64,000 nt of DNA from Chiloscyllium plagiosum (taxonomy: Eukaryota), in NCBI RefSeq assembly GCF_004010195.1, contig NC_057718.1, forward strand, positions 39,291,143 through 39,355,142. Direction: 5' to 3'. The notes below the pieces were generated by a model. That model saw only the letters and a list, made by a program, of their open reading frames with translations, did no database searches and was not told the origin of the DNA. How positions within the stretch are numbered: the stretch's first letter is position 1; every line of letters starts with the position of its first letter. A program made the translations under genes and the position numbers. Shown in pieces: positions 9,600 to 62,340 of the stretch.

Positions 9600-10770
9600 T
9601 TTTTAATCGCTTATGGGACATGAGTGTTGTTGGCTGGGCCAACATTTTTGTCTGTTTCTGGATCAGTGGTGCTGGAAGAGCACAGCAATTCAGGCAGCAT
9701 CCAACGAGCAGCAAAATCGACGTTTTGGGCAAAAGCCCTTCATCAGAAATAAAGGCAGAGAGCCTGAAGGTTTACCACATTTTTGTCTGTCCCTAGTTGC
9801 CCATGTGAAAATGGTGGTGGCCTGCCTTCTCAAACCACTACAGTCCATGTGCTGTGGATAGACCCACAATGCTGCTAGGGAGGGAAATCCAGGATTTTGA
9901 CCCAGTGACACTGAAGGAATGACAATATATTTCCATGGTGAGTGACTTGGAGGGGAACTTGCAGGTGGTTGTGTTCCATGATCTGCTGCTCCTGTCCTTC
10001 TAGATGATAGTGATCATGGGTTTGGAAGGTGTTGTTTAAGTAGCCTTGATGAATTTCTGCTGTGCATCTGATAGACAGTACACATTGCTGATATGGTGAT
10101 GGATGGAATGAATGTTTGTGGATCTGGAGCCAAACAAGTAAGCTGCTTTGTGCTAGATGACGTCAAGCTTCTTGAGTGTTCTTGGAGCTGCACTCATCCA
10201 GTCAAGTGAGGAGTATTCCATCACAATCCTGATATGTGCCTTGTAGATGGTGAACGGGCTTTGGGAAGTCAGGAGGGGAGATACTCGCTGCAGGATTCCT
10301 AGTCTCTGATCTGCTCTAGTAGCCACTGTATTTATATGGTGAATCTCATTCAGTTTTGGACAATGATAACCCCCAGTATGTTGATAGTGGGGGATTTAGT
10401 GATGGTAATGCCATTGAATGTCAAGGGATGATGGTTAGATTGTCTAATATTAGAGATTGCCATTTCCTGGTACTTGTGTGGTACAAATATTACTTGCTAC
10501 TACTCGGGCCAGGCCTGGATATTGTCCAGGTCTTGTTGCATTTGAGCATGGATCACCTCAGTACCTTAGGGGTCATGAATGGTGCTGAATATTGTGCAAT
10601 CATCAGCAAATATTTACACTCTGAACTTATGATGGACAGAAGATCATTGGTTAGGCAGCTGAAGACAGTTGGGCCTAGGACAAAACCCTGAGGAACTCCA
10701 GTAGAGCTGTCCTGGAGCTGAGATGACTCACTGCCAACAATCACAACCATCTTCCTATGTGTTAGGTATA
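9600..10770 (-). mobile_element. CR1-clade LINE 3' fragment (family sharing its tail with the Deu-type SINE)
   Basis: RT motif TGVPQGFVLGPTVFSCLTNDL (ORF 10553-10750); interrupted at 9656-9776 by a PLE mini-insertion. Confidence 0.8.
9656..9776 (-). mobile_element. 121 bp Penelope-derived insertion with 14 bp TSD and hammerhead-like motif
   Basis: Flanked by acatttttgtctgt at 9642-9655 and 9777-9790. Minus strand reads CUGAUGA-A-GGGC-UUUU-GCCC-AAAA-CGUC (9746-9719; G12 mutated to A). Confidence 0.8.
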
Positions 10771-11149
10771 ATTATGGCTAGTATCTGGTTCTATTATATT
10801 AAGTTTGATTCTAATTACAATGATATGTAAAGATTTGCTTTCTCTCATATCTGTAAGGGTCGTAAATTTATACAAATTGAAATTAGGCTGAATAATCCCA
10901 TAGTGTACTCAAAAACTACACATTTACAGCTGAAATAAACTTGTTATTTTGTGCTAATCAGCACTAAATTGACAATCACAATTCAGAGATCACATGCATA
11001 GGTGCAGGAAATGATCATATATTGAAGCAGAAGGGCAGTACATTAGTATGAATACATATTAAAGGATATTGTTAAAACTGAATAGAGATAGTTTTACACT
11101 ATTTTAATTTAATTGCTCATTCACCACATTCAACATATGCAAGTATACT

Positions 11150-12410
11150 GGAACTATATTTGGATGAGAATATAGAAGGTAAGGTTATTAAGTTTGTGGA
11201 TGACACCAAAACTGGTGGACAGTGACGAAAGTTATGTAAGAGTAAGATTAAATGGGCCAACCAGCTGAAAAGTGGCAGATGAAGTTTAATTTACATAAAT
11301 GTCAGGTGTTGCACTTTTGGTATGGCAAACCAGGACAGGACTTACACAGTTAATGGTAAGGCCCTGGGCAGTGTAGTTGAACAAGAGGGACCTAGGGTGC
11401 AGACTCAGAGTTCCTTGGAAGTGGCATCGCAGGTAGACAAGGTGGTGAAGAGGACATTTGGCACGGTTTCCTTCACTGATCAGAGCATTGAGTATACAAA
11501 TGGGACATCATGTTGTGGCTTTACAAGGTGCTGGTGAGGCCACTTTTGGAATACTGTGTACAATTCTGATCACCCTGCTATAGGAAAGATGTTATTCAAC
11601 TAGAAAGGGTGTACAAATAATTTACGAGGATGTTGCCAAGACAAGAAGGTTTCAGTTATAAGGAGAGACTGGATAGGCTGGGTCTTTTTTTCCAAGAGCA
11701 TCAGAGCTGAGGGGTGACCTTATAGAAGAATCATCACAGAATCTCTATGTGTGGAAAAAGGCCATTTGGCCCAACAAGTCCACACCAACTCTCCGAAGAG
11801 TAGCCCACCCAGACCCATTCCACTTCCTTATTACTCTACATTTCCCCTAACTAATGCACGTAACCTACACATCTCTGAACACTATGGGCAATTTGGCATG
11901 GTCAGTTCACCTAACCTGCACATCTTTGGACTGTGAGAGGAACCCAAAATGCCCGGAGTAAACCCACGCAAACATGGGGAGAATGTGCAAACTCCACACA
12001 GATTCCACAGGCTGGAACCGAACCCAGGTCCCTGGCGCTGTGAAGCAGCAGTACTAACCACTGAGCCACCATATGAGGGTCATAGATAGGTGAATAGCCA
12101 AGGTCTTTCTTCAAGGCTAGGGGAGTCCAGAATTAGAGGCCATAGATTTAAGGTTTTGAGGAAAAAGCTATTAAAGTGACCTGAGGGGCAACTTTTTCAC
12201 ACAGAGGGTGGTGCGTGTATGGAATGAGCTGCCAGATGAAGTGGTAGAGGCGTATACAATTGCAACATTTAAAAGACATTTGGACAGGTGCATGAACAGG
12301 AAAGGTTTAGAGGGATATGGACCAAATGCAGGCAAATGGGTCTAGTTCAGTCTGTGATACCTGGTCAGCATGAATGGTCTGTTTCCGTGCTGTATGACTC
12401 TATTACTTTG
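11150..12410 (+). mobile_element. 5'-truncated HER1/CR1 LINE, interrupted by an HE1 SINE
   Basis: KFVDDTK RT motif near 11190, ORF2 C-terminal remnants, tgtatgactcta tail; homologous to 56700-57637. Confidence 0.9.
11730..12072 (-). mobile_element. HE1-type V-SINE nested in a LINE
   Basis: Reverse complement starts ggtggctcagtggttagtactgctgc and carries the V-domain; LINE sequence resumes on both sides. Confidence 0.9.
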
Positions 12411-14949: not shown

Positions 14950-17280
14950 TTTTTTACCCCAGTAGTTAAACCATTCTACAATCATGTATATAATTATACG
15001 ACATTTACTAATATACCAACAGCCTCAAGTCTCTGACCTCACAAATGTCCTTAATTTCATTCCTGGAAGACAGTTGCTCCACTGAACTAAGTATTTGCTT
15101 TCTTATGATGTTCTGGAATAGGCTGTTGTTTTCTAATTGGAATAGGTAGTAGTAGTGGCTCTTTTTTTTTTGCAGTTTCTTGGATGCATCTACCAGGCTT
15201 TTCTTGATCATATCTTGGATCAATGGGATGTTGGTCTGGCTCCCTTGGAGTTTATATCTCCCTAAAGTTGTTGATCATACTAGATGTCTTCAATCACCCA
15301 TTGTCGTCCTTGCTTGAGCAGTGAAGGAAACCTTTCCATACTTTCAATCATGTTAATGAAAGATTGCTACTCTCTCAACACTATCCCAGTCACTGGCTTT
15401 GAATGTCTCATTTTAGAAGACAAAGAACTGAACTCTTCCTTCATTCCTGTGAAATCTATCCCTTCCTCCATTTTGCTAATATTAAACAGCTCTCTATGCC
15501 AACATTAGCAATCTCACTCAATTCTTTCGTCAGTTTGGTTTCTATTATGAGTCTGGGAAGTCCAGTGAAGTCTTTTGCTGGTTACTTTTGACTGACTGGT
15601 CAATATCAGTCTGTTCATGGACCAGTGTTTGAACAGCTGTTTACTTCTGGGCCAGCTGTTCTCTAGGAGGTTCCCGACTCCTTTAACTCTTCTGATGAAG
15701 CTCAGGTCGAGACACGTAAGCAGACTCAAAAGTGAAGTCGGTTATGTGAAAATCTTAAAAATTCTCATCTCTTATTAACATTGTTATTGTAATATAACTT
15801 TTTGCATTCCAATGCTTCTGTCACTTATTTCACCAGGTAGTCCTATGAGGAAAGGCTGCAACTCTGCTTCTTTAGTCACAGTTACTGGTTTGATAGAATA
15901 GGAACATTTGCTCCTGTACCAACAGCATATCCAGTGGTAGAAACAAAAACAAAAGTTGCTGGAAAAATTCAGCAGGTCTAGCAGTGTTTGTAGACAGAAA
16001 GTAGAGTTAACATTTCAGGTCCAGTGACCCTTTTTTTTTGTCCAATGGCAGAAACAAGTTCTGGCTCTTCTGGCTTGTCTAGTTTAGCTATTTCTCCTGG
16101 GAATGCCTGAGGAATCTTTTCCAATGGAGGTATTTTGTCAAATCTAGTTATAGTTTACAATGATGATGAGCATTCTACTGAATAGACCTTTTTATGTGTG
16201 TGATCATGAATACTCCACTATTCTGAAACTTATGTCTAATCTTCTGCATATCATCTGAAAGTGACCTACAACTTAAAAAATATTAATTCCCTCAGTGACA
16301 ATTGGACATCATCAATGTCTATAAGTCCTATTGCACCACAGTAGTTAGACTGCATTTTTGCAACTCGTTGATACCTGTGTACAGAAGGTTACATGCATCT
16401 CTAAAGTATCCATTCCTTTATAAAAGTAAGATGCTATGTTATCAGCTTTAGGTAATGTTGTTCTTCTCATTTCAGGATCTGTCCACGTCTTCTTGGCTTC
16501 TGATTTCATCACAATTTGAATAGCTTTCTTCAAAGTCAAATCTGCTTTGGATTGTTAAAAGATCTGACAAAGTTTTATCAAAAGTTTGAAGAACAGTTCT
16601 GTCAGTTAGGAATTCTGTTATAAGGGTTCTAGATTCAATTTTCCAGTCATTTGAGGAGATCATTAATGACCACATTCATATAGCTCCATAAGTCAAACTT
16701 TTCTCCGAAATCTTGCTCATGCGAAAATGTTCTTAAATTGAAGTAATTACCAAAAGCTCCAAGAACACCTTCAAAAGTGTCTATATTCTCCTTGATGTAT
16801 TTCTCTGTTAATAACACCATCCATAACTGAACCCACTGAATATAATAATTGCTCAGTTTCAGTTTTATTGTTTAATTTTAAGGCAATATGTATCTTAAGA
16901 ATTGTTTTTCCATGGAGTTCAATCAATATGCTGACCTCTGATCTTGAATGTACTGGCAAGTATGATATATTTTTCCTTTTCCCCTCAAGGTGGCGATTCT
17001 TTTTATTACTGAAAAGGTATTTCAAATGTGAACAATTTCAATATTGATTTAAATCTACTTATTGTTTAAGACATGATGCTAGTTTTAAATTGAATGACAA
17101 TAGAGTTTGCTAAACTCTGCATCACAACAGTGCTGCAGTATTTCCTTTCTTTGCCCGTCTCTTTAACGCTTTTACTATATTGAATTCTTCAATAAATCTT
17201 CAAGTTGTATTATGGGTTGTTCTGTCGCAATTAATTGCTTTCAAGCTTTTCAAATTTGATTTTTTTGTAATATTTCCTCA
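14950..17280 (-). mobile_element. Second decayed Gypsy (Mag-like) LTR retrotransposon
   Basis: Gag remnants LKLNNKTETEQLLYSVG (ORF 16771-17025) and TLKKAIQIVMKSE (16345-16539); remnant of an integrase Zn-finger region near 15160-15230. Resembles the element at 2030-5027. Confidence 0.65.
15940..16032. mobile_element. Penelope-derived terminal-repeat fragment
   Basis: Matches the left arm of the palindrome at 30121-30213. Confidence 0.65.
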
Positions 17281-17320
17281 CCATTTTCAGGGTTTTATCA
17301 AAATGGCAGCTACCCACTTC

Positions 17321-17644
17321 TCATGATTCGGAGATGCCGGTGTTGGACTGGGGTGTACAAAGTTAAAAATCACATAACACCAGGTTATAGTCCAACAGGT
17401 TTAATTGGAAGCACACTAGCTTTCGGAGCGACGCTCCTTCATCAGGTGATTGTGGAGGGCTCGATCGTAACACAGAATTTATAGCAAAAATTTGTAGTGT
17501 GATGTAACTGAAATTATACATTGAAGAATTGATTGTCTGTTAAGCCTTCATGAATGAAGAAGGGCTCATGCCCGAAACATCGGTTCTCCTGCTCCTTGGA
17601 TGCTGCCTGACCTGCTGCGCTTTTCCAGCAACACAATTTCAAGC
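17321..17644. mobile_element. Two abutting Penelope-derived terminal repeats, each with a hammerhead-like motif
   Basis: 17321-17547 is a well-preserved, CpG-retaining repeat homologous to 41178-41292. 17554-17644 is homologous to the right arm at 43147-43234. Confidence 0.8.
17412..17450 (-). ncRNA. Putative minimal type-I hammerhead ribozyme motif (PLE-associated)
   Basis: Minus strand: CAC-CUGAUGA-A-GGAGC-GUC-GCUCC-GAAA-GC-UA-GUG. Intact core, perfect 5 bp helix II, palindromic AGCU helix III, CAC/GUG helix I. Confidence 0.65.
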
Positions 17645-18710: not shown

Positions 18711-18740
18711 TTGGTTGTTTGTACAGCTATTAGCACAAGG

Positions 18741-21860: not shown

Positions 21861-22319
21861 TTCAATGTTGATACACAAATAGAAGTGGTGGAACTCAATC
21901 TGGAATAGAAAGCTAATGACAATGATGGTGACCATGACAAATATCAATGATTACCGTAATAACAAACATGTTTACAAATATTCTTTAGGGAAGAAAATTT
22001 GCCATCCTTACTTGGTCTGACTTACACGTGACCCCAGAGCAATGTGTATGATTCTTAACCATCCTCTGAAATGGTCTAGCAAGCCATTCTGCTCAGGAGC
22101 AATTAGGAAAAGGCATCAAGTGTTGGACTGAGCAGTGACATTCACAGTCCATGAAAGAATATTATGATTGTTATCTTTGCAACAAAGGAACCTGATGGAA
22201 AATTTAACTGAGATGTATCAAATTATGAATGGCCAGGACTTCTGAGTGGATCAAATAGACTTATTTCAAGAAGTCAGTAACCGGGAGACAAAGATTGAAA
22301 GAGCTTGGTCCAAGAATTA

Positions 22320-23235
22320 TAATTAGTAAGTTTGCAGATGACACCAAAATTGGAGGTGTAGTGGATAGCAAAGAAGGTTACCTCAGATTACAACGGGATC
22401 TTGATCAGATGGGCCAATGGGCTGAGGATTGGCAGATGGAGTTTAATTTAGATAAATGTGAGGTGCTGAATTTTGGGAAAGCAAATCGGAGCAGGACTTA
22501 TACACGTAATGGTAAGGTCCTAGGGAGTGTTGTTGAATAAAGGGACCTTGGAGTGCAGGTTCATAGCTCATTGAAAGTGGAGTCGCAGGTCGATAGTGAA
22601 GGTGGCGTTTGGTATGCTTTCCTTTATTGGTCAGAGTATTGGGTGCAGGAGTTGGGAGGTCATGCTGTGGCTGTACAGGACGTTGGTTAGGAATATTGCA
22701 TGCAATTCTGGTCTCCTTCCTATTGGAAAGATGTTTTGAAACTTGAAAGGGTTCAGAAAAGATTTACAAGGTTGTTGCCAGGGTTGGAGGATTTGGGTTA
22801 TAGGGAGAGGTTGAATACGCTAGGGCTATTTTCCTGGGAGCATCGGAGGCTGAGGGGTGACCTTATAGATGTTTATAAAATCATAACGGGCATGGATAGG
22901 ATAAATTGACAAAGTCTCTTCCATGGGGTGGGGGAGTCCAGAACTAGAGGGCACAGGTTTAGGGTGAGAGGGGAAAGATATAAAAGAGACTTCGGGGGCA
23001 ACTTTTTCATGCAGAGGTGGTACGTGTATGGAATGAGCTGCCAGAGGAAATGGTGGAGACTAGTACAATTGCAACATTTAAAAAGGCATCTGGATGGGTA
23101 ATATGAATAGGAAGGGTTTGGATGGATATGGGCCAGGTGCTGCCAGATGGGACTAGATTGGGTTGGGGTATCAGGTCGGCATGGATGAGTTGGACTGAAG
23201 GGTCTGTTTCCTACTGTACATCTCTATGACTCTAA
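22320..23235 (+). mobile_element. 5'-truncated young HER1/CR1 LINE
   Basis: SKFADDTKIGGVVDSKEGYLRLQRDLDQMGQWAE and QFWSPSY...RLRGDLI; tail tctctatgactcta; closely similar to 56710-57637. Confidence 0.95.
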
Positions 23236-25793: not shown

Positions 25794-26890
25794 TGTTAAG
25801 AATAACTTTATGTTTAATTTAGAGCTTGTATTGTATGTGTTAAGAAGAGGAAGACATGGTTTCATTTTGTAGAGTTATTTTGGGCTTCATACAAGGACTC
25901 CAAAGACCTTCTTGTTTACATGCATTTTACACCCTTGAGCTTTGAGCATTAAAAATAACCATGGAGAGGAAAAATAACTGTGTTATTACCTAGCAACAGG
26001 GGTCCAGGGTCTCAGAGGGAGAACAATCCAGGAAGTCAGTCAGGGGTGTGTGGCAGAGAAAAGACTGCTGGAAGCTAATATTAGGAAAATTGCATCTTTG
26101 CTTTGAAGTATCAAGTAACATTGAGTTTGTGAGTTTTGAGAAGATTTGTAGCTCAGGTTGAGGTTCTGGATGTAAGTTTGCTCACTGAGCTGGAAGATTT
26201 AGTGAGTTTAGCTTGCAGTTTGTTTTAGGTGTCAGAGAGACAATAAGTTTTAAAAAAGCAATACACCTCAAAAGGAAAATGGTTATAGCCATACCAGTCT
26301 GGACTTGAGCAAGAAACCCTAAAGATGGTGGTGACTCTTCAGTAAGGTGTGGGTACTTTTAAGAATATTACTAGGATAAAAAAGAATAATATGAATTTGG
26401 TTTTTTTTCAAGGATGTGTGCAATGAAATGTATCTAACCCTTTTGTCTCATGTAAATGTAATTCATGTTATTTTTGTTTATTAAACATTTTATTATTTCT
26501 GTTATAGGTACACTGGCAGACTCTTGTTAAATAACTGACCAGCATATTCAATCCCATCTATCTATCTCCGAGAAAAAGAACAGGAAATAACATCACTGAG
26601 ACAGAAAATCTCACCCAAGGAAATCTAAACACATAAATAGCAAGCAAGACATAACGCCAGTGCTTTACTACAGGTTCACTTATGTTATTTAGTATGGTGA
26701 TGAATGTCTGAAAACAAACTTTCCAGCTCAGTGAGCAAACTTACATCCAGAACCTCAACCTGAGCTACAAATCTTCTCAAAACTCATTGACCACCACAGT
26801 TTAAACAAAGTACAAAATTTGGCCTTTCAAGCTAAGTTTTCAAGTTTTCAAGCTAAGTTTCATTCAGGGATCTGACTTAGCCAGAATTAC
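25794..26890 (+). mobile_element. Candidate solo LTR carrying two oppositely oriented Penelope-type terminal repeats
   Basis: TG...CA ends (tgttaag...aattaca). Internal segments 26130-26200 and about 26550-26787 contain a 70 bp near-perfect inverted match. The LTR call rests on pattern only. Confidence 0.4.
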
Positions 26891-29350: not shown

Positions 29351-30089
29351 GTTTGGCTTTAAAGTACACATGAAAAATTGTTGAATCTGCACTACTAATT
29401 GGTCTCTTGAAACCAGTGCCTACTTTTCCTCTTCCCATTCTATCTTTTAATTCAAAGTCTTTCAAACCTCTCCTATGTTTTCTCCTGAGTATGCCTGCTA
29501 TTATCTCTGGAACATCAGTCACATGTGAAATTCCTCTATTTATTTAGATTCTGCTGTCATTAACACATTGATATAGAGGTATCATAAATGTTTAATTCAA
29601 GACAACTTATTGTCTTCATACTGCTCTTGCATCAATTTTCAAGTTCACTAAGACTTTGCACATGACGCATGAATTTTATGTACTGAATTTGTTACATATA
29701 AAACCACTCAAACATATGAAGCTTAAAATTGCAATATTGTCCAATGCTACTAAATATTATTATGACATGCATAGTAAAATAATTTTCCAAATTTCATCAG
29801 ATATTAAAAATGTGACCTAAAAATGAATCCTACCACTTTTACTGCAGCAGAAGACAGCCACACTGACAGCTAAAGCACACAATGTGCAGGAACATGCAGT
29901 TTGACTTAATTGGATCTACCCTCACAGCCTACAGCAAGAGACTCAATTGAGGCTCAGCATAAAATATTTACCACCAAAGTAGCCATAGTACTTCAACTCC
30001 CAGTTTCTGCAGGACGGTGAAAACATTAACAGTTTTAAACATTTGTTTGTCATCTATAATAAACAATTTTAAAATATTTGATAAAAACT

Positions 30090-30310
30090 GAAAGAACTTT
30101 GGAAGCTGCAACTCACAAACAAAAACAGAAATTGCTGGTAAAGCTCTGCAAGTCTGGCAGCATCTGTGCAGAGAAATCAGAATTAACTTTTTGGGTCTGG
30201 TGACCCTTCCTCACTTCTGAGGAAGGGTCACCTAACCTGAAATGTTAACTTTGATCACTCTTCACAACTGCTGCCATACCTGTTGAGCTTTTCCAACAAC
30301 TTGTTTTTGA
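30090..30310. mobile_element. Palindromic Penelope-derived mini-element
   Basis: Arms at about 30121-30213 and 30218-30309 are inverted, with centre tgacccttcctca-cttc-tgaggaagggtca. Decayed hammerhead-like CUGAGGA-A-GGGU...CCU-GAAA-UGUU at 30217-30246. Confidence 0.75.
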
Positions 30311-35654: not shown

Positions 35655-36350
35655 TCTTAGAGTCGTTCGCTGAGCTGGTGTAGTTTTTCTGCAGACATTT
35701 TGTCGCCTCACTAGGTGACATCGTCAGTGTGCCTTTGATACGGTATTGGTGGTCTGTTCCACCTGGTATTTATGTGTCTCCATTTTTTTGGTACTTCTGG
35801 TTCTGCATCTGAGTGGTTTGTATATGGAGTCCAGTTCAATGTGTTTATTGATTATTGAGTTCCAGTTGGAGTACCAGGCTTCAAGGAAGTCTCTCCCGTG
35901 TCCCTGTTTAGCCTGTGCTAAGATGGTTAAATTGTCCCAGTTGAATTTGTGTCCTTCTTTGTGTAGTTCAAAATGAGAGGGGACTGGTCACGTCTGGCAG
36001 TAGCAAGTTGATGTTCGTACACTTGTATGGTCAGTTTGCTTCCTGTTTGTCCTATGCAGTGTTTTTCACAGTCCTTGCAGGGTATCTTGTAGATGTTTGT
36101 CCTCTTGGATGTGGGTGTCTCGTCTTTAACCTTTGTGAGGAGCTGGTGAAAGGTGCCTAATGGTTTGTGGGCCACTAAGATTCCTAGGTGTTCGGGTAGT
36201 CAATACAGATTTGTTGCATAGATATTGCAGGATAGTGCTCTTGGGTTACCCATTTCATTTAAATCCCTTGAATCGGTGTTCCTGTTCTGCCTTCTGGAGT
36301 TATGGATTGCTGCTGTCTGTCCTTGCTCATTTAAATAGTGTATTTTGAAA
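35655..36350 (-). mobile_element. Penelope-like element 3' part with GIY-YIG endonuclease remnant
   Basis: NIYKIPCKDCEKHCIGQTGSKLTIQVYEHQLA (ORF 35927-36175), followed downstream by decayed hammerhead-like CUGACGA-U-GUCACC...GGCGAC-AAAA-UGUC at 35727-35694. Confidence 0.85.
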
Positions 36351-36969
36351 ATGCATTTATTTTGCAAAGTTATCAGTAACAAAAATAACTGGTGCAGAAT
36401 ATCCCTGCAATCCATAAAGCATTTAATTGTCTGTAAAGTACCAAGAAACATTCCCATTTCCAATGCTTGCTTTTTCTTTCTTTAATATTGAAATTTGTAA
36501 CACACCTACCTTCACATACATTCCATATTTGGACTTCACATTTTCATAACATTCTGTTTACTTTCTATCTGCAAATCTACTTTTCATCAAGATAAAATCA
36601 TTTACATATACATATGGTTCACTAATAATTTGTTTAGTTAGCAATGATTGCTAATTTTATAAATATTGAGATAATTTTGTAAAATATCTACATTTTTATA
36701 AAGAAAAGGAATTCAACTTTTCTTTGAAAAGGTTGTAATTCAACTATTTAATCGTAAACACAATCTACTGCCAAGTTCCTTCTGTTGCTATTCTCTAAAC
36801 TAATCTTAATTCTAGCCTGATAATGTCCTGTCAATTGAGCCTATCCAGACTATCTTTGTTGTGAAATAATCCATTTTTTCCCCAAAAGACATATTACATG
36901 TAACTTACATAGCAAAATCACTTTGAAGGAATTTTAAATACTAAAATCTAACAAAACCTAAGAGTTTAA

Positions 36970-37644: not shown

Positions 37645-37905
<261 letters not shown>

Positions 37906-38539
37906 CTATAGAGAAATATGCAAATAAAATCAATTTTTGCCTCACAAATTTAGAAATAGCACACTATACTAATTTGTCACACACTGCACATAGAACATCT
38001 TGCATTCAAACCAGATGGAACACATTTTCAACAAGTAAATATATCTGCACAGAGCAAACCATTCATTTTTGATATTACTCAATACTAATTAACCTGTGAA
38101 AATAAACACCATTAGCAAAATCACATCAATTCTTTCATGATTTTCCACACAATTGCAAAAAAAACTTTCAATATGTCAGGGAAATGCTCAGAATCATATA
38201 GCAACGATACAATCATTTCAAAAATGCTGTATATTAAATACAAGTTATGAGAAATCATTGTAGCTTGTTAAAAAAGGTTTCAGGGATTCAGAAATGCAAT
38301 ATATAATTAAGTAACATGTTATTCAAGTTTCATACATATAATATGCATAAATATGCATTTGGTGATACAGATCTTGAGTACTGCTGAAAAAGATACATTT
38401 TGTCAAAGCTCTTCATCTTTCACTCATCAAGACAACTGGCAAGAAATACAGATGTAAAGAAAATCCAATATTTATCACTGTTTAAGAAGACAGTCCTGCT
38501 TGTGTGGCAAGTGAACTCTGACTGGTGAGGGATTGCCAT

Positions 38540-40485: not shown

Positions 40486-41177
40486 GTTTGAATTAAAAAT
40501 AATTAAAACACAGGCTCCTTTGCAGACAAAAGTAACATGTACACACATTGTGCCTGTTACAATACAATGAAATAGATGAAACTCATCCTTGCATTCATTC
40601 TCAGCTTTGATCAGAGTCAATCCACTTGGTTTAAAATTAAACAAAAATTGGCAGTTTACCATCACTCATCAACTAACTGGCACATTTTCCATGGCAATGC
40701 TTCTACCAATGAGTCCACTTGCCAACCATTTAGCACTCTTTTCTCATATAGTACAAAGTGTTGTTTACCTTTACATTGATACTTTTGTGCATTGTCCTAA
40801 TCTGTTGAGGACAAAAAGCTTCAATAAAATGTGTATTTTTCAGCAATATATATTTTATTGGTCTGTAGGGAGAATCAGCTTCAATGTGCAGCTGAGAATT
40901 TACCACTAATTTGTGCTCTCTTAGTATTGTTTCAGCAAAAAGGTTCTGTTAATCATAACAATACTGTCTGCATCACAGCAAACTTGAACAGGACAACATA
41001 AAGTCATGCAAGATATGAAAAGAAATACTATATTTCCACAAAAACAAAGCATTGAAAATAAATTCTGAATGTTGTCCGAGGACTTCAAACACAAAATGGT
41101 GGAATGGGACGCTGATACTAAAATGAAAAGGAAAATGCTTCCAGCTTCTGTTCAGTTTTGCTTAATACATTCACAAA

Positions 41178-41292: not shown

Positions 41293-43007
41293 TACATTCA
41301 CAAAAGTAGCCAGCAACTTAGATGCAAGACGTTTTGATTTATTCAGGATGTACATTCTAGAAATGAGTTACAACTAAAGAAAAATCAATAGTTACAAGTG
41401 AAACCTGTGCAATCTTGGAGCCACACTTTAACTATGTAGTTTGCAACAGCATATACAACAACATATTTGGTTTGAGACTTCAGTGTGTTTCCATGAAATA
41501 CTAAGCCATCCTCGCTGAATATCCAGAGTTCCTACTTGCCTTGATATAAAATGGACATCTAAATGCATCTTAGGAGACAAATAATTGGAAGGGTCAGGAA
41601 TTCTTTAGTCCAGTAATTACAGATCCTAAGGCTTAATGCATGGGAAGAAAAACATGAGTTATTGTGGTGCCTATAAGGGCTGAATGTCAGGATAACGATA
41701 TTTTTGCAAGATTGCACTGGCTTGAGTAATTTCACTTGAGTAATCAAACAGATGAATGCATGGCTCAAAGATTAGTGTGTGAGAACTGGATTTTGATTCA
41801 CATGGCACTGGCAGCAGTACTGAGGATAACAGTTGCTGCATCATAGAGTCTTAGAGTCATACAGCACGGAAACAGATCCTTTGGCCCAACTTGTCCATGG
41901 CGACCAAGTTTCCTAAATTTAACTAGTCCCACTTTTCTGCATTTGGTCTGTAGGCCCCTAAACCTTTCCTATCCATGTAACTGTCCAAATGTCTTTTCAA
42001 AGTTGTAGGGATGGGCACAGGAGTTTCTGGTATTCCGAGCTAGCTTGTTGGAGCACCGATACGATGAGACTTTCCCCAGATAGCCAGAAAGTTCTGCTGA
42101 GGAGGAGGAAAACAAGACAATTTGGTTGCTGATCATGGTCAGGGACAGGAGGGTATAGCTACAAATGAGGCAGGTATTGGGACCAGAAAGATAGAAATGG
42201 AGAGTCTCAGCTCTTGAAATTGTCCAACAGTTTTGTGGTTCTTGCAGTTTGAGTGTATGAGAATGGGGCCTGTAAGATGTACACGCGAACTGACCATGAC
42301 ACCATGTTCAAATGGGGGGAACAAATAGGAATATTGTGCTCATAGGAGAGAGTATGGTCAGTGACATAGATAGTTCTCTACAGCTGATAACATGAATCCA
42401 GACTGTGTTACCTGCCTAGTGCCAATGTTCAGGATGTCAGCTGGAGGTACTTACAATGGGAGGAAGAGGATACAGTTGGCATGGGTCCCAATACGAGTAG
42501 GATTGAGATTCTGTTTAGGGATTATGAGCAGCTACAGGCTAATTTAGAAAATTGAAGTTCAAAGGTAACAATCCCTGGATTATTCTAGAAGGGTCCCTGC
42601 AGATTAAAAAATAGCTAGTATAACATGTTTATTTTTTTAAAAAAGGGAAGGTAAGCGGCAGGAAATTCTAAGTCAAGCAGCTTTATATCTACCATAGGGA
42701 AATTATTATAATCCATTATGAACATTCTATAGCAAGATGCTTAGAAAATCATAATGTGAGCAGAGTCAACATGGCTTTGTTAAATGGATATCAGTTTCCT
42801 AATTATTAGTTTTCTTTTAGGAAGGAGCAAATAATCTCTGGATTATTACCCCAGTCACAAGCAAAGTAAATAAGATCAGAGGAATGAATGCATGGCTCAA
42901 AGACTGGCGTGTGACAACTAGATTTTGACTCACATGGCACTGGCAGCAGTACTGAGGATAGCAGTTTCTGCATCATAGAGTCTTAGAGTCATACAGCATG
43001 GAAATAC

Positions 43008-43238
43008 TAGGCAAAAGTGAGGACTGCAAATGCTGGAAATCAGATTCTAGATTAGAGTGGTGCTGGAAAAGCACTGCAGGTCAGGCAGCATCCAAGGAGT
43101 AGGAAATTCGACGTTTCGGACAAAAGCCCTTCATCAGGACTGAAGACAGTCCTGACGAAGGGCTTTTGCCCGCATGTCGATTTTCCTACTCCTCGGATGC
43201 TGCCTGACCTGCTGTGCTTTTCCAACACCACTCTCACC
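43008..43238. mobile_element. 231 bp palindromic Penelope-derived mini-element with 14 bp TSD
   Basis: Flanked by cagcatggaaatac at 42994-43007 and 43239-43252; inverted arms 43054-43142 / 43147-43234 with a 4 nt loop. Confidence 0.9.
43106..43141 (-). ncRNA. Putative minimal type-I hammerhead ribozyme motif (PLE-associated)
   Basis: Minus strand: UC-CUGAUGA-A-GGGC-UUUU-GUCC-GAAA-C-GUC-GA. Intact core, canonical GUC cleavage triplet, palindromic ACGU helix III. Confidence 0.6.
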
Positions 43239-44215
43239 CAGCATGGAAATACGTCCTTTAACCCAGCTTGTTCATGTCAACCAAGTTTCCTAAACTGAAC
43301 TAGTCCCATTTTCCTACATTTGGCCCATATCCCTCTAAACCTTTCCTATCCATGTACCTATACAAATGTTTTATCAAAGTTGTAAGTGTATTCACCTCCA
43401 CCACTTACTTTGGGAGCTCATTCCATATATCCACAGCTTCTGTGTGAAAAAATTGCCCCTCAGGCTCCTTTTAAACCTATCACCGCTCACTGGGATGGGC
43501 CAAGTATTCTGATAAGTCATAGAACCAGGATTGCAGAAATCATTTTAAAATAAATAGTGGGAGAAAGGGATTGCGTGAGAGATCCTGGTAACGAAAAACC
43601 CAAGACAGGATTCATCAATAACTTCTTGGTAAAGGAGCACTAGGTGACAGTGTCATAACAGGATAGAACTTTATGTTCAGTTTGAAGGGAGAAATAATAG
43701 TTGAGGACTAGTATTTTAAATCTCAAAAAAGAATTATAAGGCATGAAGGTAAAGTTAGTTAAACTGAACTGGGAAATTATGTTAAATGGTAGGACAGTTG
43801 TGATGGGAATACCTCTCAGCAAAGATTAAACCCAGTGAGAAAGATAGACTCTTTAAGAAAGATGTATTATCAGTGTTGAAATAAGAAAGTTAAGAGTAGT
43901 ATCAAATTCAAAGAAACACTGTAAACATCAGCAAAGAATTTTGGCAGCAGTCAGAAGATTGATCAGATTTTAAGAGCCAGCAAAGAACAACTAAAAACCA
44001 AATAGAGGGACAAAGTAGAGTATGAGAGAAATCAAGTTCATAACATGAAAACAATAGTTATTGCAACAATTATTTAGTTTAACAATTATTTAATTTGAAA
44101 AAGAGTAAGTCAAGCTTGTATTGGTCCTCTAGAGGGAGACACTGGGGAATTGATCATGGAAACAAGGAAGGAATAGAGGCACTCAACAGTTATTTATGTC
44201 TGATTTAATTGTAAA

Positions 44216-49479: not shown

Positions 49480-49487
49480 TTTACAAA

Positions 49488-50225: not shown

Positions 50226-50501
<276 letters not shown>

Positions 50502-52682: not shown

Positions 52683-52785
52683 CAATGAAGGGCTTATGCC
52701 TTCTCCTGCTCCTCGGATGCTGTGCATTCCCACCACAACACCCTTCACCTCTGATCTCCAGCATCTGCAGTCCTCACTTTCTCCT
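52683..52785 (+). mobile_element. Penelope-derived fragment inserted in LINE ORF1
   Basis: tgaagggcttatgcc..ctcctgctcctcggatgctg...ccagcatctgcagtcctcacttt matches the 43008-43238 element; aatg occurs on both sides. Confidence 0.75.
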
Positions 52786-53856
52786 AATGTAGCACAGACA
52801 GCCACGTTTGTGGTATTGAGACTGGCTCTAATGTAATGAGAGGTACATCAAGTTCTAAGCGATCAATTGTTTTAGGGGACTGTCTAATCAGAGGCACAGA
52901 CAAACGTTTCTGCAGCAAGCAGTGAAAAATCAGACTGATGTGTTGCCTCCCTGGTGCCAAGATCAGGGATGTATCAGAGATGGTGCAGAATGTTCTCAAG
53001 GGGGAGAGGACCCAGCAGGAGGTCAATGTACACACTGGAAATGACGACATAGGAAGGGAAAAGGATGAGATTCTGAAGGGTGAATATGGAAAGTTAGGCT
53101 AGAATTTAAAAAGAGGCCCTCGAGGGTAGTAATATCTGCATTACTCCCGGTGCCACGAGATACTGAGGATAGAAATAGAAGGATAGAGCAGATAAATGCA
53201 TGGAGGAGGAGCTAGTACAGAGGAGAAGAATTCACATTTTTGGAACATTGGTATCTCTTCTGGGGTAGAAGTGACCTGTACAAGAAGGATGGATTACACC
53301 TGAATTGATGGGGGACTAATATACTGGCAGGGAGGTTCACTAAAGTTGCTCAGGGCGGTGGGGAGGACCCAGGGAATTTGTGAGGAAAGAAATCAATCTG
53401 AGACAGGTACAGTTGGGAAAAGGAATGAGTCAAACAGTCAGGGCAGGCAGGAACAAAGCAGAGAACAAGGTAGGACTGATGCATTGAAATGAATGCAGTT
53501 TAATTTAAGAGGCCTAACAGGGAAGACAGATGAACTCAGGGCATGGTTAGGAACATGGGACTGGGATATCATAGCAATTACAGAAATATGGCTCAGGCAT
53601 GGACAGGACTGGCAACTTAATGTTCCAGGATACAAATGCTTTGTGAAGGATAGAAAGTGAGGCAAGAGAGGAGGGGGTGTGGCACTTTAGATAAGGGATA
53701 GCATTACTGCTGTACTTAGGAAGGATATTCCTGGGAATACATCCAGGGAAGTTATTTGGGTGGAACTGAGAAATAAGAAAAGGATGATCCCCTGATTGGG
53801 ATTGTATTATAGATCCCATAATAGTCAGCAGGAAATCGAGAAACAAATTTGTAAGG

Positions 53857-55085
53857 CCTCACTAACCTTATTGAGTTCTTCGAGAAGGTGACGAAACAGG
53901 TGCATGAGGGTAAGGTGGTTGATGTGGTATACATGGACTTCAATAAGGCATTTGATAAGGTTCCACATAGTAGACTATTGCACAAAATAAGGGTTTTCAG
54001 GATTGAAGGTGATTTAGTGTTTTGGATCAGAAATTGGCAAGCTAAAAGAAGACAGAGGGTGATGGTTGATGGGAAATGTTCATCCTGGAGTTCCGTTACC
54101 AGTGGTATGCCGCAAGGATCCGTTTTGGAGCCATGGCTGTTTGTCATTTTTATAAATGATCAGGAGGTGGGCATAGAAGGATGGGTTAATAAATTTGCAG
54201 ATGACACTAAGTAGGCAGAGTTGGGGATAGTGCCGAAGGATGTTGTTGGTTACAGAGGGACATAGATAAGGTGGAGAGTTGGACTGAAGTGGCAAATGGA
54301 GTTTAATGCGGAAAAGTGTGAGGTCATTGACTTCGGAAGAAGTAACAGGAATGCAGAGTACTGAGCTAATGGTAAAATTCTCGGCAGTGTAGATGAACAG
54401 AGATCTCGGTGTCCTGGTGCCCAAATCCCTGAAAGTTGCCACTCAGGTTATTAGGGGTGTTAAGAAGGCATATAGTGTGTTGACGTTTATTGGTAGGGGG
54501 ATTGAGTTTTGGAGCCACGAGGTCATGCTTCAGCTGTACAAGATACTGGTAAGGCTGCACCTGGAATATCGCGTGCAGTTCTGGTCACCGCATTATGGGA
54601 AGGATGTGGAAGCATTAGAAAGGGTTTAGAAGAGATTTACTAGGATGTTGCCTGGTATGTAAGGAAGGTCTTACACAAGGCTGAGGGAACTGAGGCTGTT
54701 TTCATTGGAGAGATGATGGTTGAGAGGTGACTTAATCAAGATGTATAAGATAATCAGAGGGTTAGATAGGGTGGACAGTGGGAGCCTTTTTCCTCGGATG
54801 GTGATGGCTAACACAAGGGGGTATAGCTTTAAATTCAGGGGTGGTAGTTTTAGGACAGTTATCCGGGGTAGTTTCATTACTCAGAGTAGTAGGGGCATGG
54901 AACAGCCTGCCTACAAGAGTAGTAGACTCGACAACATTAGGGCATTTAAATGGGTATTGTACATACATATGAATAATAATGAAACGGTGTAGGTTAGATG
55001 GGCTTCAGATTAATTTCACAGGTCGGCGCAACATCAAAGGGCTGGAGGTCCTGTACTGTGCTGTAACATTCTATGTTCTATGTTC
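53857..55085 (+). mobile_element. 5'-truncated CR1 (second subfamily) nested in the endonuclease domain of the full-length LINE
   Basis: Begins abruptly at LTNLIEFFEKVT and ends in (ttctatg)n; the host endonuclease sequence stops at EKQICK and resumes at VICKNNKAVMVGDFN. Confidence 0.92.
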
Positions 55086-57689
55086 GGTTTCAGTTATCTG
55101 TAAGAATAATAAGGCGGTTATGGTAGGGGATTTTAACTTTCCAAACATAGACTGGGACTGCCATAGTGCTTAGGGTTTAAATGGAGAAGAAAGTGTTAAG
55201 TGTGTACAAGAACATTTTCTGATTCACTATGTGGATGTACCTACGAGAGAAGGTGCAAAACTTGACCTACTCTTGGAAAATAAGGCAGGGCAGATGACTG
55301 AGGTATCAGTGGGGGAGCATTTTGGGGCAAGCGACCATAATTCTATTATTTTTAAAATAGTAATTGGAAGACCAATACTTGTTATTTAACCATTTATTAT
55401 TTTACATCTCTACTGAGGATAGACCAGATCTAAAAGTTGAAGTTCTAACGTGGAGGAAGGTTAATTTTGACGGTATTAGGCAAGAACTTTCAAAAGCTGA
55501 TTGGGTGCAGATGTTCACAGGTAAAGGGACAGCTGGAAAATGGGAAGCCTTCAGAAATGAGATAATGAGGGTCCAGAGAAAGTATATTCCTGTTCGGGTG
55601 AAAGGAAAGGCTGGTGGGTAGAGAGAATGCTAGATGGCTACAGAAATTGAGGTTTTGGTTAAGAAAAAGAAGGAAGCATATGTCAGGTATAGACAGGAGA
55701 GATTGAGTGAATCGTGAGAAGAATATAAAAGCAGTAAGGAGTATACTTAAAAGGGAAATCAGGAGGGCAAAAAACGGACATGAGATTGCTTTTGCAAATA
55801 GGGTTAAGGAGAATCCAAAGGATTTTTATAAATACATTAAAGACAAATGGGTAACTAGGGAGAGAATAGAGCCCCTCAAAGGTCAGCAAGTCAGCCTCTG
55901 TATGGAGCCGCAGGAGATGTGGAGATACTGAAAGAATATTTTGCATCAGTGTTAACTGTGGAGAAGGACATGTAAGATATAGAATGTAGAGAAATAGATG
56001 GTAATATTTTGAAAAACGTCTATATTACAGCAGAGGAAGTGCTGGATGTCTTGAAACGCATAAAAGGTAGATAAATTTGCAGGACCTGATCAGGTGTACC
56101 CTAGAATTCTGTGGAAAGCTAGGGAAGTGATTACTGGGCCCCTTGCTGAGATATTTGTATCATCGATAGTCACAGGTGAGGTGCCGGAAGACTGGAGGTT
56201 GGCTAACGTGGTACCACTGTTTAAGAAGGGTGGTAAGGGCAAGCCTATAGACCAGTGAGCCTGACGTCAATGGTGGGCAAGTTGTTGGAGGGAATCCTGA
56301 GGGACAGAATTTATATGTATTCGGAAAGGCAAGGACTGATTAGGGATAGTCACCATGGCTTTGTGCAGAGGAAATCATGTCTCACAAACTTGATTGAGTT
56401 TTTTGAAGAAGTAACAAAAAGGATTAATGAGTGCAGTGCAGTAGATGTGAACTATATGGACTTCAGTAAGGCATCTGACAAGGTTCCTCATGGGAGATTG
56501 GTTAGCAAGGTTATACCTCATGGAATTGAAGGAGAACTAGCCATTTGGATACAGAACTGGCTTAAAGGTAGACGATGGAGGGTGGTGGTGGAGGGTTGCT
56601 TTTCAGACTGGAGGTCTGTGACCAGTGGTATGCCACAAGGATCAGTGCTGGGTCCACCACTTTTCATCATTTATATAAATGATTTGGATGTGAACATAGG
56701 GGGTATTGTTAGTAAGTTTGCAGATGACACCAAAATTGGAGGTGTAGTGGACAGCAAAAAAGGTTACGTCAGAGTACAATGGGATCTTGATCATATGGGC
56801 CAATGGGCCGAAGAGTGGCAGATGGAGTTTAATTCAGATAAATGCGATGTGCTGCATTTTGGAAAGGCAAATCAGGGCAGGACTTATACACTTAATGGTA
56901 AGGTCCTTGGGAGTGTTGCTGAACAAAGAGATCTTGGAGTGCAGGTTCATAGTTCCTTGAAAGTAGAGTTGTGAGTTAGATAGGATAGTGAAGAAGGCGA
57001 TGGGTATGCTTGCCTTTGTTGGTCAGTGCATTGAGTACAGGAGTTGGGAGGTCATGGTATGGCTGTACAGGACATTGGTTAGGTCACTGTTGGAATATTG
57101 CTTGCAATTCGGGTCTCCTTCCTATTGGAAGGATGCTGTGAAACTTGAAAGGGTTCAGAAAAAATGTTCAAGGATGTTTCCAGGTTTAGAGGATCTGAAC
57201 TATAGGGAGAGGCTGAATAGGTGGGGGCTGTTTTCCCTGGAGTGTCGGAGGCTAAGGGGTGACCTTATAGAGGTTTATAAAATCATGAGGGGCATAGATA
57301 GGATAAATAGACAAGGTATTTTCTCTGGGGATGGAGCAGTCTAGAACTAGAAGGCACAGGTTTAGGGTGAGAGGAGAAAGATATAAAAGAGACTTAAGGG
57401 GCAACTTTTTCACGCAGAGGGTGGTATGTACATGGAATGAGCTGCCAGAAGACATGGTGGAGGCTGGTACAATTACAGCATTTAAAAGGCATTTGGATGG
57501 GTATATAACTAGGAAGGATTTAGAGGGATATGGGCCAAGTTTTAGTAAATGAGACTAAATTAGTTAGGATTTCTGGTTGGCATGGACAAATTGGACCCGA
57601 GGACCTGTTTCCGTGCTGTATATTTCTATGACTCTAGATGAAAGACTTTCTATCAAACAAATCTCTCAGTCAACCAACTATATCAGTTC

Positions 57690-60000: not shown

Positions 60001-60024
60001 AGAATTTAGCTTAGTTTTTCTTTG

Positions 60025-61150
60025 GAAAAGCAAAATGCAACAGTTGCTGGAAAGCTGAAGTAGGAAGAATAAAAACTGGACAAAACCTGGGAGATAAGGC
60101 CACATCATCGGGTCAATGACCTTTCTCAGAACTGAAGAATAGAAATTGAAGAGATTTAATGTTCATAGTGGGATGGGGAATGAAGAACAAAGGAAAAGCT
60201 ATGTGATGGGGTGGAGTCCGGGGTAGATTAAATCTCAAAAGATTTCATAATGGATGAGACAAACAGAAAGTTAATGGCTATAGTTAGGAAATAATAGTTA
60301 TGGCCAAATAAAGTGTAAATTTGAATGCAATATGATGGGATAAAAAAAAGACAAAGGCCAACCCAACAAAATAAAACAAGGGGAAGAAAACAGCACATCA
60401 AACAAGATGAAGACAGAGGATATGAACTAAAGTTGCTGAATTTGGTGTTCAGCCCAGGACGCTACAGGGTGACAATTCAAAACATGAGGTGTTGTTCCTC
60501 AAGCTTGCATCGAGTTTGAGTGGAACACAGTCACAGGCCAAGACAGAAAGAGTAACATGGGAGCATGAGGAGAATTCTAATGGCACAACCAGAAGCTCGG
60601 GATTATGCTTGTGGACTGAATGAAGGTCTTCTGCAAAACAGTCACAGAGTCTGCAGTTCTTCTCTCCATTGTGAAGAAGACCACATTGTGAGGAGCAAAT
60701 AGAATCACAGAGTCATAGTCATAGGGATTTATAGCACAGAAAAAAGGCCCTTCACCCCATCAGTCTGTGCTGGTCAAAAACAAGCAATGAACCATTCTAA
60801 TCCCACTTTGCAGCACTTCGCCCATAGCCTTGCATGCCTTTGGCACCATAATTGCACATCTAAATTCCTCTTAAATGTTAGGAATGTTTCTACATCCAAG
60901 TCTATTTATTTGGAGGAAGTACATGGTGGATTTGTAAAGAAAATTTTTGTCAGAGTAAAGACAACCTCAGCCAGGCATAGGATGGTGTTGGTGGATGGGG
61001 ATTGGTTGGGCCTTTGTTTGAGGAAATAACAGAGTTCTGAAACTGTCCTGGTGGGGAATGGAGGTGTGGAGAGAGTGGATGTCTACAGCAAAGAAGAAGC
61101 AGTTAGTTACTGTTGAAATGCTATAGGACATCAGAAGAGTTGTGGACATA
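60025..61150 (-). mobile_element. Decayed Penelope-like element (RT and GIY-YIG remnants), interrupted by a CR1 tail at about 60700-60900
   Basis: RT remnant FFAVDIHSLHTSIPHQD (ORF 60967-61149); endonuclease C-terminus RCKLEEQHLMF..TL..PGLNTKFSNF near 60430-60512; terminal repeat at 60025-60130. Confidence 0.8.
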
Positions 61151-62209
61151 CATCCGAAGAGACTGCTTACAGGTTATTTCTTAGTCTGTATGTCCGAATT
61201 AGATAATGTCTCAGAGGAGCAACATTATCTTTCAATATAATAAACAACGCAAAAAGAACACTGCATGTGGTTGAACTCTCCAGAATTATAGAAAGCAACT
61301 TAAGAATTAGAAGGTATGATGAAGCCAGTTGTCACCCTTTCATCAATGCTGCAAAAGCTGGGTTGTTGTTATTGTTGTTACATCGAATGTACTGTATGAT
61401 AATCTGAAACCTAAAATGAACCTTAGCTTTAACAGCAAAGGATTATGTCATGGAGTAATCTATTTCTAAACCTTGCAAAGGTGCATTATGTCATGACTAA
61501 CTTAATAAAATAGTCACAAATTAAATTAATGTATTAATCAGAAAATACAGCATATTGTATTACCCCCTCCAGCTTCTATAACAAAAAAAACCATTTCAGG
61601 CTGATGGACTTTGATTTTCATTATATGGCCTGATTTCTGCTAAATGGGTGCACAGCTAAAAAATGAACAGGTTATTTGCACAGTCAGATCCAAACCATAT
61701 CCAGTAGTTTCTCAAGCAAGCTAAAACAGATGGGCATCACCTAAACTTAGTATATCAGTTTGCATTTCCAGACATTAGCCAGTGCCTAAGCAGCAAAACA
61801 GCCAGGGTCACAATAGTTCCACATCAGGATGGAAAAAGCACTATTAGGTTTAACACTAAACTTTCCCATAAGGAAGGTTGTGATCTCTCCTGCTCCCAGA
61901 TTCCAATCCATCCCTTCTCAAAATCCCTCCTGCCATTTACTTAGAAATCAGACAGCTGCCATGAGTATTTTGAATTCGCAAATTAGGGAGTTAAAATCAA
62001 CAATTTTGTTCAACAATTTCAATCTCTAGATACTATAATTTTAACACGCAAAACCAGTGCTTCAACAGTTACGCATTTCTGCCCAGTACTTTAAATTCAA
62101 TTGGTGGAATTTCCAGGCCCTCCCAGAGCTTTTATAAGGGCAAGCTGGGGAAATTAATTGGGTTGGAGGCAAAAATCACATTTCTCACCGGCAGGTTTAA
62201 GTTTTGCTA

Positions 62210-62340
62210 TTATTGCTGAAATACATTAAATTTTGTCAAAGCTTTTCAACTTGCACTCATCAGGGCAATCCACAAGAATACCAGGTCAGGAGGACACTGT
62301 TTGAGAGGTAGACTATTGATTGGTTGGCAAGTGGACAACT
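62210..62340 (-). mobile_element. Penelope-type terminal repeat with hammerhead-like motif
   Basis: Homologous to 38378-38520; minus strand CUGAUGA-GUGCAAGUU-GAAA-AGCU at about 62263-62240. Confidence 0.6.

What the first reader, a model, noticed from the sequence alone, without database searches (positions are those of the whole stretch)
9656..62340. About five Penelope-derived families in one gene carry covarying minimal hammerhead ribozyme motifs
Seen: the core CUGANGA...GAAA recurs at 9719-9746 (-), 17417-17445 (-), 17555-17581 (+), 30217-30246 (+), 35694-35727 (-), 41209-41237 (+), 43110-43137 (-) and 62240-62263 (-). Several copies carry point changes in the core. Helix II differs between families but stays paired (GGGC/GCCC, GGAGC/GCUCC, GUCACC/GGCGAC). 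In the intact copies helix III is a palindromic tetramer (ACGU or AGCU). Most have one extra nucleotide after CUGANGA. One motif lies just downstream of a GIY-YIG remnant. Established: Penelope-like elements carry minimal type-I hammerheads with very short palindromic helix III, proposed to cleave as dimers. Inference: shark genomes hold a large, diverse and probably unannotated set of such ribozymes, including an extra-nucleotide core variant.
Basis: partly seen in the sequence, partly recalled or inferred. Interest (0 to 1): 0.75.

Follow-up and report, generated by a model that had tools for sequence, protein, structure and literature searches.

The report
Penelope-element hammerhead relics in shark introns
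These are real but mostly broken copies of the small self-cutting RNA motif that Penelope-type jumping genes are already known to carry, left as insertion stumps in introns of a shark potassium-channel gene; only one family, which may fold with an extra knot, looks unusual.

Summary
All 8 motifs are at the stated places, and full hammerhead anatomy far exceeds chance (3 hits vs 0.015 in shuffles; the bare core alone is at chance, 8 vs 7.6). They belong to five repeat families (17 fragments) in introns of shark KCNH1. Four insertions have 12-14 bp target duplications; two are head-to-head palindromes with a one-sided tail, the known Penelope-like element (PLE) footprint. Family D follows a GIY-YIG remnant. 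Only 2 of 8 copies (17445, 43137) keep core and helix II; 43137 is locked in a long hairpin with its antisense twin. The 'extra-nucleotide variant' is not new: Cervera and De la Pena 2014 list it as a conserved feature of PLE minimal hammerheads. Verdict: new members of a known kind, most likely inert here; cleavage untested. This scan found the same thing several times before on other shark DNA. One odd part: family E (62263) has no extra nucleotide, a 2-bp helix II, a 6-nt palindromic helix III and an upstream 6-mer complementary to loop II. That suggests a pseudoknotted, dimer-type hammerhead, abundant in three species' DNA runs, but no covariation was shown and its PLE origin is only inferred.

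The parts
9656..9776 (-). Family A fragment, hammerhead 9719-9746 with G12A (dead); flanked by a 14-bp target duplication at 9642-9655 and 9777-9790
17320..17459 (-). Family B fragment with the one fully intact min-HHR (17417-17445): helix I 3 bp, extra A, helix II 5 bp, palindrome AGCU, predicted cut after CUA; sense to KCNH1
17554..17638 (+). Family A fragment, hammerhead with C3A and G16.2A (dead), head-to-head with the family B copy
30082..30310 (.). Family C palindromic insertion: minus arm 30121-30214 plus one-sided tail, plus arm 30217-30309 (core intact, G.U at 10.1-11.1 and 15.2-16.2); target duplication 12 of 13 bp at 30069-30081 and 30311-30323
35727..36364 (-). Broken PLE coding end (linker and GIY-YIG endonuclease, in several frames); 60% over 73 aa to a Chiloscyllium RT + GIY-YIG protein
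35658..35727 (-). Family D hammerhead (35694-35727; G12A, C15.2U, one helix II mismatch) and tail; A9, the extra U and G10.1 spell AUG, opening 24 stop-free codons
41180..41292 (+). Family B fragment, core intact but two helix II mismatches (41209-41237); short inverted tail piece at the left; target duplication 13 of 14 bp at 41166-41179 and 41293-41306
43008..43238 (.). Family A palindromic insertion in a CR1-like 3' end: minus arm with intact core and helix II (43110-43137, helix I 2 bp) plus one-sided tail, plus arm 43151-43232 with a damaged GAAA; exact 14-bp target duplication at 42994-43007 and 43239-43252
62209..62338 (-). Family E fragment: hammerhead 62233-62268 with 5-bp helix I (4 of 5 here), no extra nucleotide, 2-bp helix II (damaged here), AAGCUU palindrome, candidate pseudoknot with 62270-62275
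38376..38519 (-).
40711..40848 (+).
26130..26790 (.). Family D-like copy (26515-26790 +, decayed hammerhead near 26690) with an inverted 71-nt piece at 26130-26200
15944..16035 (-). Family C fragment lacking the 5' half of the core; possible 11 of 12 bp target duplication
1370..1435 (-). Family C/A-like decayed fragment
52685..52786 (+). Family A fragment with the 3' half of the core deleted
50262..50461 (-). Host KCNH1 exon (about residues 460-525 of P0004)
37653..37905 (-). Host KCNH1 exon (cNMP-binding domain, from residue 526; 100% to P0004)

Best explanation
The motifs are the minimal type-I hammerheads (min-HHR) that Penelope-like retroelements carry in their pseudo-LTRs. Reverse transcription starts just downstream of the ribozyme (the 'tail') and usually stops after 100-250 nt, so most insertions are stumps: the ribozyme-bearing end, often joined head-to-head to an inverted copy and flanked by a 12-14 bp target duplication (anatomy shown; the steps are inferred from PMC11167929 and PMC8557442). 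In the live element, two motifs in a tandem transcript would pair through the palindromic helix III, probably helped by the element's protein, and cut after H17 (inferred from the papers; not tested). Selection in the active elements kept core and stems, hence the covariation between families. Once inserted in KCNH1 introns the copies decay neutrally, largely at CpG sites, and are most likely inert: monomers, mostly with lesions, one intact copy masked by its antisense twin.
For: Shown: full anatomy far above chance. Five families, 17 fragments. Across one copy each of families A-D, 27 of 28 stem positions pair, against 39 of 84 when strands are swapped between families; permutation P 6e-6. 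Target duplications of 14, 14, 13/14 and 12/13 bp in 4 of 15 placements tested, against 3 of 150 random placements reaching 12 matches. Palindromes with a one-sided tail match the PLE insertion form in PMC8557442 Fig. 2 legend. GIY-YIG remnant directly upstream of D. A Chiloscyllium homologue, P0123, reads through the same spot with a translated intact core, TEDVTSAGDETF against HTDDVT**GDKMS here. Published Fig. S3 rows for Acropora and Clonorchis closely resemble families A and D. Read by eye, 9 of 15 departures in the 8 named sites fall at CpG. The 43137 copy folds into a long hairpin of -179 kcal/mol (z -21.7), and helix II probability is 0.0.
Against: No cleavage evidence: the RNA run gave 9 reads on family E and no pile-up of ends. 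A protein link exists only for D (no PLE protein match elsewhere). The covariation test is partly circular: copies and registers were picked because they pair, and there are only four families. Only 1 of 8 sites passes the published descriptor unchanged. The P0123 footprint pattern alone is not significant (1 hit, 0.3 expected); its position is the argument. 11 of 15 placements show no 12-bp duplication. Genome-wide consensus was not obtained for A-D, as no genome is held.
Confidence: 0.88

Rival explanations
1. The intact sense-strand copies (17445, 43137) cut the KCNH1 pre-mRNA and have been kept as host regulators, like the conserved intronic hammerheads of amniotes.
For: Both intact copies lie on the minus strand, the sense of KCNH1.
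Against: Two of two on one strand is a 1 in 4 chance event. 43137 is sequestered in a long hairpin. 17445 has a 3-bp helix I, no same-strand family partner in the window and a helix II probability of 0.018 in 320 nt of context. The min-HHR monomer tested in PMC4209133 showed no cleavage.
Confidence: 0.05
2. Families A, B, C and E are non-autonomous elements (retrozyme-like or SINE-like) that move as short units using PLE proteins, not truncated ends of autonomous PLEs.
For: No PLE coding match next to A, B, C or E. Uniformly short copies. Non-LTR retrozymes related to pLTRs are reported, including in one chondrichthyan (bioRxiv 2026.07.22.740005).
Against: No tandem arrays here. Palindrome centres and 5' ends differ from copy to copy, as expected for 5' truncation. 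The same preprint notes most PLE insertions are 5'-truncated with one terminal repeat. This rival changes the carrier, not the nature of the motif.
Confidence: 0.2
3. Chance matches to a short consensus.
For: The bare core occurs at chance level, 8 vs 7.6; Rfam finds no hammerhead.
Against: Full descriptors are far above chance; the motif sits at the same place in repeated families, and its stems covary.
Confidence: 0.02

Closest known systems
Minimal hammerheads (min-HHR) of metazoan Penelope-like elements (Cervera and De la Pena 2014, PMC4209133)
   Same: Type I; CUGANGA plus one extra nucleotide; G10.1-C11.1; 4-6 bp helix II; helix III reduced to a palindrome; several families per genome; mostly single truncated copies; pairs on opposite strands. 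Families A and D resemble the Acropora and Clonorchis rows of Fig. S3.
   Different: No cartilaginous fish appears in Table S1 or Fig. S3. Family E falls outside the paper's descriptor (stem II of at least 3 bp, GAAANNUH).
Poseidon element of Anolis carolinensis, PAc (Frangieh et al. 2024, PMC11167929)
   Same: Ribozyme at the pLTR/ORF junction, start codon at the start of stem II, cut site 26 nt downstream, tail from internal priming. Family D has an AUG at the same place, 28 nt before its predicted cut, and no Cys-rich linker before GIY-YIG (Penelope/Poseidon-like; inference).
   Different: PAc is intact and was assayed (cleavage needs the protein and is not needed for insertion in vitro); the copies here are fragments.
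Pseudoknotted hammerheads with very short stem II (Perreault et al. 2011, PMC3088659)
   Same: Stem II of two base pairs or fewer, with a Watson-Crick pseudoknot between the stem I and stem II regions; the model for family E.
   Different: In the passages seen the tested example is metagenomic, and highly repetitive type I motifs were left out of the stem-length analysis. Family E adds a loopless palindromic helix III in a high-copy vertebrate repeat.
Non-LTR retrozymes (PMC7229834; bioRxiv 2026.07.22.740005)
   Same: Short non-coding animal repeats with type I hammerheads, related to pLTRs, reported in one chondrichthyan.
   Different: Retrozymes are head-to-tail arrays; the copies here are monomers or head-to-head palindromes.

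Membership tests
PLE min-HHR (families A-D) | CUGANGA and GAAANNUH core | tested here: met
   Intact in 17445, 30217, 41209 and 43137; lesions in 9746, 17554 and 35727. For D the intact state is inferred from P0123.
PLE min-HHR (families A-D) | Extra nucleotide between 9 and 10.1 and a G10.1-C11.1 pair | tested here: met
   Extra nucleotide in 7 of 7 named A-D sites; G-C in 6, G.U in 30217; listed as conserved in PMC4209133.
PLE min-HHR (families A-D) | Palindromic 15.2-16.2, no real helix III | tested here: met
   ACGU or AGCU in 4 of 7; AUGU or ACAU (CpG decay) in 3 of 7.
PLE min-HHR (families A-D) | Helix I of at least 3 bp (published descriptor) | tested here: inconclusive
   Met by family B (17445); 2 bp in the A, C and D copies. 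5' ends are often insertion junctions.
PLE min-HHR (families A-D) | Covariation of stems between families | tested here: met
   27 of 28 against 39 of 84; four families, selection bias noted.
PLE min-HHR (families A-D) | Self-cleavage as a dimer | not testable with these tools
   Needs an assay.
Penelope-like element | RT plus C-terminal GIY-YIG ORF upstream of the pLTR | tested here: met
   Family D only: the remnant matches P0001, which has RVT_1 (E 9e-7) and GIY-YIG (E 0.004, below cut-off). The remnant itself has no Pfam GIY-YIG hit. None beside A, B, C or E.
Penelope-like element | Inverted 5'-truncated copy and one-sided tail | tested here: met
   43008-43238 (A), 30082-30310 (C), 41180-41292 (B), 26130-26790 (D-like).
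PLE min-HHR (family E) | Helix II of at least 3 bp, extra nucleotide, GAAANNUH | tested here: not met
   At most 2 bp, no extra nucleotide, GAAA-AGCUU-H. It works like a dimer-type PLE hammerhead but is not a min-HHR as defined.
Pseudoknotted short-stem-II hammerhead (family E) | Watson-Crick pairing of loop II with nucleotides 5' of helix I | tested here: inconclusive
   6 pairs with 2 G.U in the window copy. Majority and loose-end letters give UCUUGC against GCAAGA in three species' runs. Chance 0.4% per test. No compensatory change seen; the 38430 copy breaks one pair.
Non-LTR retrozyme | Head-to-tail tandem units each with a hammerhead | tested here: not met
   No such array among 6 tandem repeats.

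The most novel reading that the evidence does not exclude
Family E is an undescribed hammerhead build in a high-copy shark retroelement: a 2-bp helix II held by a 5-6 bp pseudoknot to the 5' flank, combined with a loopless palindromic helix III (AAGCUU). It would be a fast, protein-independent ribozyme gated by dimerisation, unlike the sluggish min-HHRs, missed by the published descriptor, and a handle on what PLE hammerheads are for.
Probability: 0.35. Interest if true: 0.5.

Novelty: new member of a known kind. Interest (0 to 1): 0.2.

Why it matters
As found, it extends a known retroelement RNA motif to carpet sharks and shows five families within 64 kb: useful for repeat annotation, not surprising. 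The role of PLE hammerheads is still open (PMC11167929 found cleavage dispensable in vitro), and abundant shark families could supply natural variants for that question. Family E is the only part that could add a new structural variant.

Tried and rejected
Rfam scan: no hammerhead family among 9 weak matches. No whole genome held, so no genome-wide counts for A-D. The family E pattern gave 0 matches in viral and in metagenome contigs. Run search: no RNA holder listed. The one RNA run laid (about 2% read) gave 9 reads, both directions, no pile-up of ends, which says nothing on expression or cleavage; only family E was laid. Pfam on 240 stop-free frames of at least 62 aa: 7 RT fragments, 1 cNMP exon, 2 weak hits, no GIY-YIG. 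MFE cofolding of two copies did not give the hammerhead dimer for any of 7 cassettes; helix II palindromes or other pairings won, which is uninformative for such short helices. Pseudoknot-like pairing was sought in 8 copies; the 9-bp runs in A43137 and C30217 come from the inverted arms. 'Extra-nucleotide variant is new' was rejected. Literature searches for hammerheads in sharks listed no paper on them apart from one unnamed chondrichthyan in the 2026 preprint. Lunse et al. 2017 is not held and may cover sharks or family E; bioRxiv supplements were closed; Repbase and Dfam could not be checked. Searches of earlier findings for family E returned nothing (few words, weak).
Full report
OBSERVATION. 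The bare CUGANGA..GAAA core is no more frequent than chance (8 observed; mean 7.64 in 200 shuffles, 98 of which reach 8), but core plus helices is: 2, 4 and 6 hits at 0, 1 and 2 mismatches against 0.017, 0.10 and 0.95, with 0 of 60 shuffles reaching each count (one of the 6, at 28598, is not a named site and belongs to no family, so it is probably chance). The published descriptor (PMC4209133 Fig. S7) passes 1 of the 8 sites, and 3 of 8 if stem I may be 2 bp. Rfam has no matching model at E<=10.

STATE OF THE COPIES. Intact core and helix II: 17445 (family B) and 43137 (A). Core intact, stems damaged: 30217 (C), 41209 (B), 62263 (E). Core lesion: 9746 and 35727 (G12A), 17554 (C3A). That G12 is the general base comes from PMC6155905 (passages). 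Reading by eye against the family majority, 9 of 15 departures are CG to TG or CA, as expected for neutral decay of methylated DNA (inference).

HOST. Two minus-strand exons (50262-50461, 37653-37905) match shark KCNH1; the second is 100% identical to Hemiscyllium, Chiloscyllium, Stegostoma and Rhincodon proteins, among others. No other exon was found, so all motifs lie in three KCNH1 introns, provided the gene runs beyond both window ends (inference). The closest relatives of the endonuclease remnant are Chiloscyllium proteins, so the DNA is from a carpet shark (inference).

CARRIERS. Profile searches built from the window's own copies give five families and 17 fragments: A 5, C 4, B 2, D 3, E 3 (seeds match by construction). 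A and C share their 3' part. Of 15 placements searched, 4 have target duplications of 12 or more matching bases, against 3 of 150 random placements. The insertions at 43008-43238 and 30082-30310 are head-to-head palindromes centred just 5' of the core, with an extra tail on one arm only. This is the PLE insertion form described in PMC8557442 (passages) and explained by internal priming in PMC11167929 (parts 1-2 of 4 read). Family D follows a broken coding end at 35727-36364 that is 60% identical over 73 aa to P0001, a Chiloscyllium protein with RT and weak GIY-YIG hits. Of 14 further relatives scanned, 4 have RT hits and 4 sub-threshold GIY-YIG hits. With 151 such proteins as queries, no other PLE coding stretch appears in the window, apart from one weak hit inside a CR1-like RT. 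P0123 aligns through the same spot and spells an intact core in translation; the pattern alone is not significant. In D the extra nucleotide is U and forms an AUG that opens 24 stop-free codons, as in the Anolis element, where the ORF starts at stem II; in A, B and C it is A.

COVARIATION. One copy each of A-D pairs at 27 of 28 stem positions, against 39 of 84 for strands swapped between families; permutation P 6e-6. Registers were chosen for pairing and E was left out, so this overstates the evidence, but the two-sided changes (for example C-G, A-U, G-C at equivalent places) are real.

MECHANISM. Shown: anatomy, family structure, insertion footprints, decay. Inferred from papers: the motif belongs to the pLTR; two motifs in a tandem transcript pair through the palindrome and cut after H17; activity is low, nil for the monomer tested (PMC4209133, parts 1-2 of 4 and the whole supplement read), and protein-assisted but dispensable in vitro. 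At this locus the copies are most likely inert. 43137 lies in a hairpin of -179 kcal/mol with its antisense twin, with helix II probability 0.0; 17445 is a lone monomer with helix II probability 0.018 in context, though the isolated cassette folds helix II. Against this: both intact copies are on the host's sense strand, which two copies cannot make significant.

COMPARISON. [quoted passage not shown] So the 'extra-nucleotide variant' is the standard form. No cartilaginous fish is in its Table S1 or Fig. S3. A 2026 preprint reports hammerhead-bearing retrozymes and PLEs across vertebrates including one chondrichthyan (parts 1-3 of 5 read; supplements closed). Lunse et al. 2017 was not available; I know it only through PMC6765202 (passages). 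PMC7229834 was seen in passages. Earlier notes of this scan report the same class in this and other shark genomes; they are unchecked AI notes and are not used as support.

FAMILY E. It differs from A-D: helix I of 5 bp (UUGUC/GACAA by majority of three copies), no extra nucleotide, helix II of at most 2 bp, helix III the 6-mer AAGCUU. Laying contigs on 62120-62420 at 80% likeness gave 747, 806 and 791 records in DNA runs of three organisms (X1, X10, X15; X1 may be the window's own source). Summed depth peaked at 5397, 22364 and 42892 over the core against 3.25, 12.6-16.2 and 26.1 in the flanks; the tool warns that this is not a copy number, but the family is clearly abundant. About 85% of depth reads A at 62249 on the minus strand, giving loop GCAAGA, and loose ends upstream read UCUUGC in all three runs, its exact complement. 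The window copy pairs there over 6 positions with two G.U. A perfect 6-mer complement in a 15-nt stretch arises 0.39% of the time, before allowing for the five families looked at. Short stem II held by a pseudoknot is known in other hammerheads (PMC3088659, passages). Against: no compensatory change was seen, mapping favours the reference letters (C at 11.1 is below 10% in the DNA runs and is inferred from one window copy), the 38430 copy breaks a pair, and no PLE protein is linked to E. The shortest helix II in the published Fig. S3 is 3 bp. The same insertion is present in organisms B and C (records 9, 11, 17), so it is old.

VERDICT. Observation confirmed; interpretation right in kind, wrong on novelty. 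New members of a known kind, mostly dead. Interest 0.2; the family E pseudoknot is the one lead worth a test.

Noticed in passing
window 62209-62338 (-), 38376-38519 (-), 40711-40848 (+): Family E carries CCAAT-like boxes and, in two copies, an AT-rich TATA-like stretch upstream of the hammerhead: a possible pLTR promoter (reading by eye).
   Followed up: no
window 35719-35727 (-): The last endonuclease frame stops at the UGA inside the CUGA core, and the next AUG is made by A9, the extra U and G10.1. Homologues end at scattered places, so the stop may be incidental.
   Followed up: partly
window 26130-26790: 71-nt inverted repeats, 97% complementary and 515 nt apart, far better preserved than the decayed hammerhead between them; no target duplication found.
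   Followed up: partly
window 17320-17640: A family A copy and a family B copy sit head-to-head about 110 nt apart; 43008-43238 and 9656-9776 lie inside other repeats.
   Followed up: no
window 10556-12400, 22259-23220, 38915-39920, 53855-54670, 56237-57620: Several decayed LINE copies with RT hits; the name CR1 is recalled, not tested. Also several SINE-like repeats (for example 11735-12024, 33050-33280, 35203-35437).
   Followed up: no
P0122, P0123: Annotated 'uncharacterized' Chiloscyllium proteins are read-throughs of PLE remnants into the hammerhead DNA, so such gene models are probably spurious.
   Followed up: partly
window 32694-32885 (-), 55707-55928 (+): Weak Pfam hits below cut-off (TUTase E 0.007; DUF3627 E 0.005), probably chance.
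   Followed up: no
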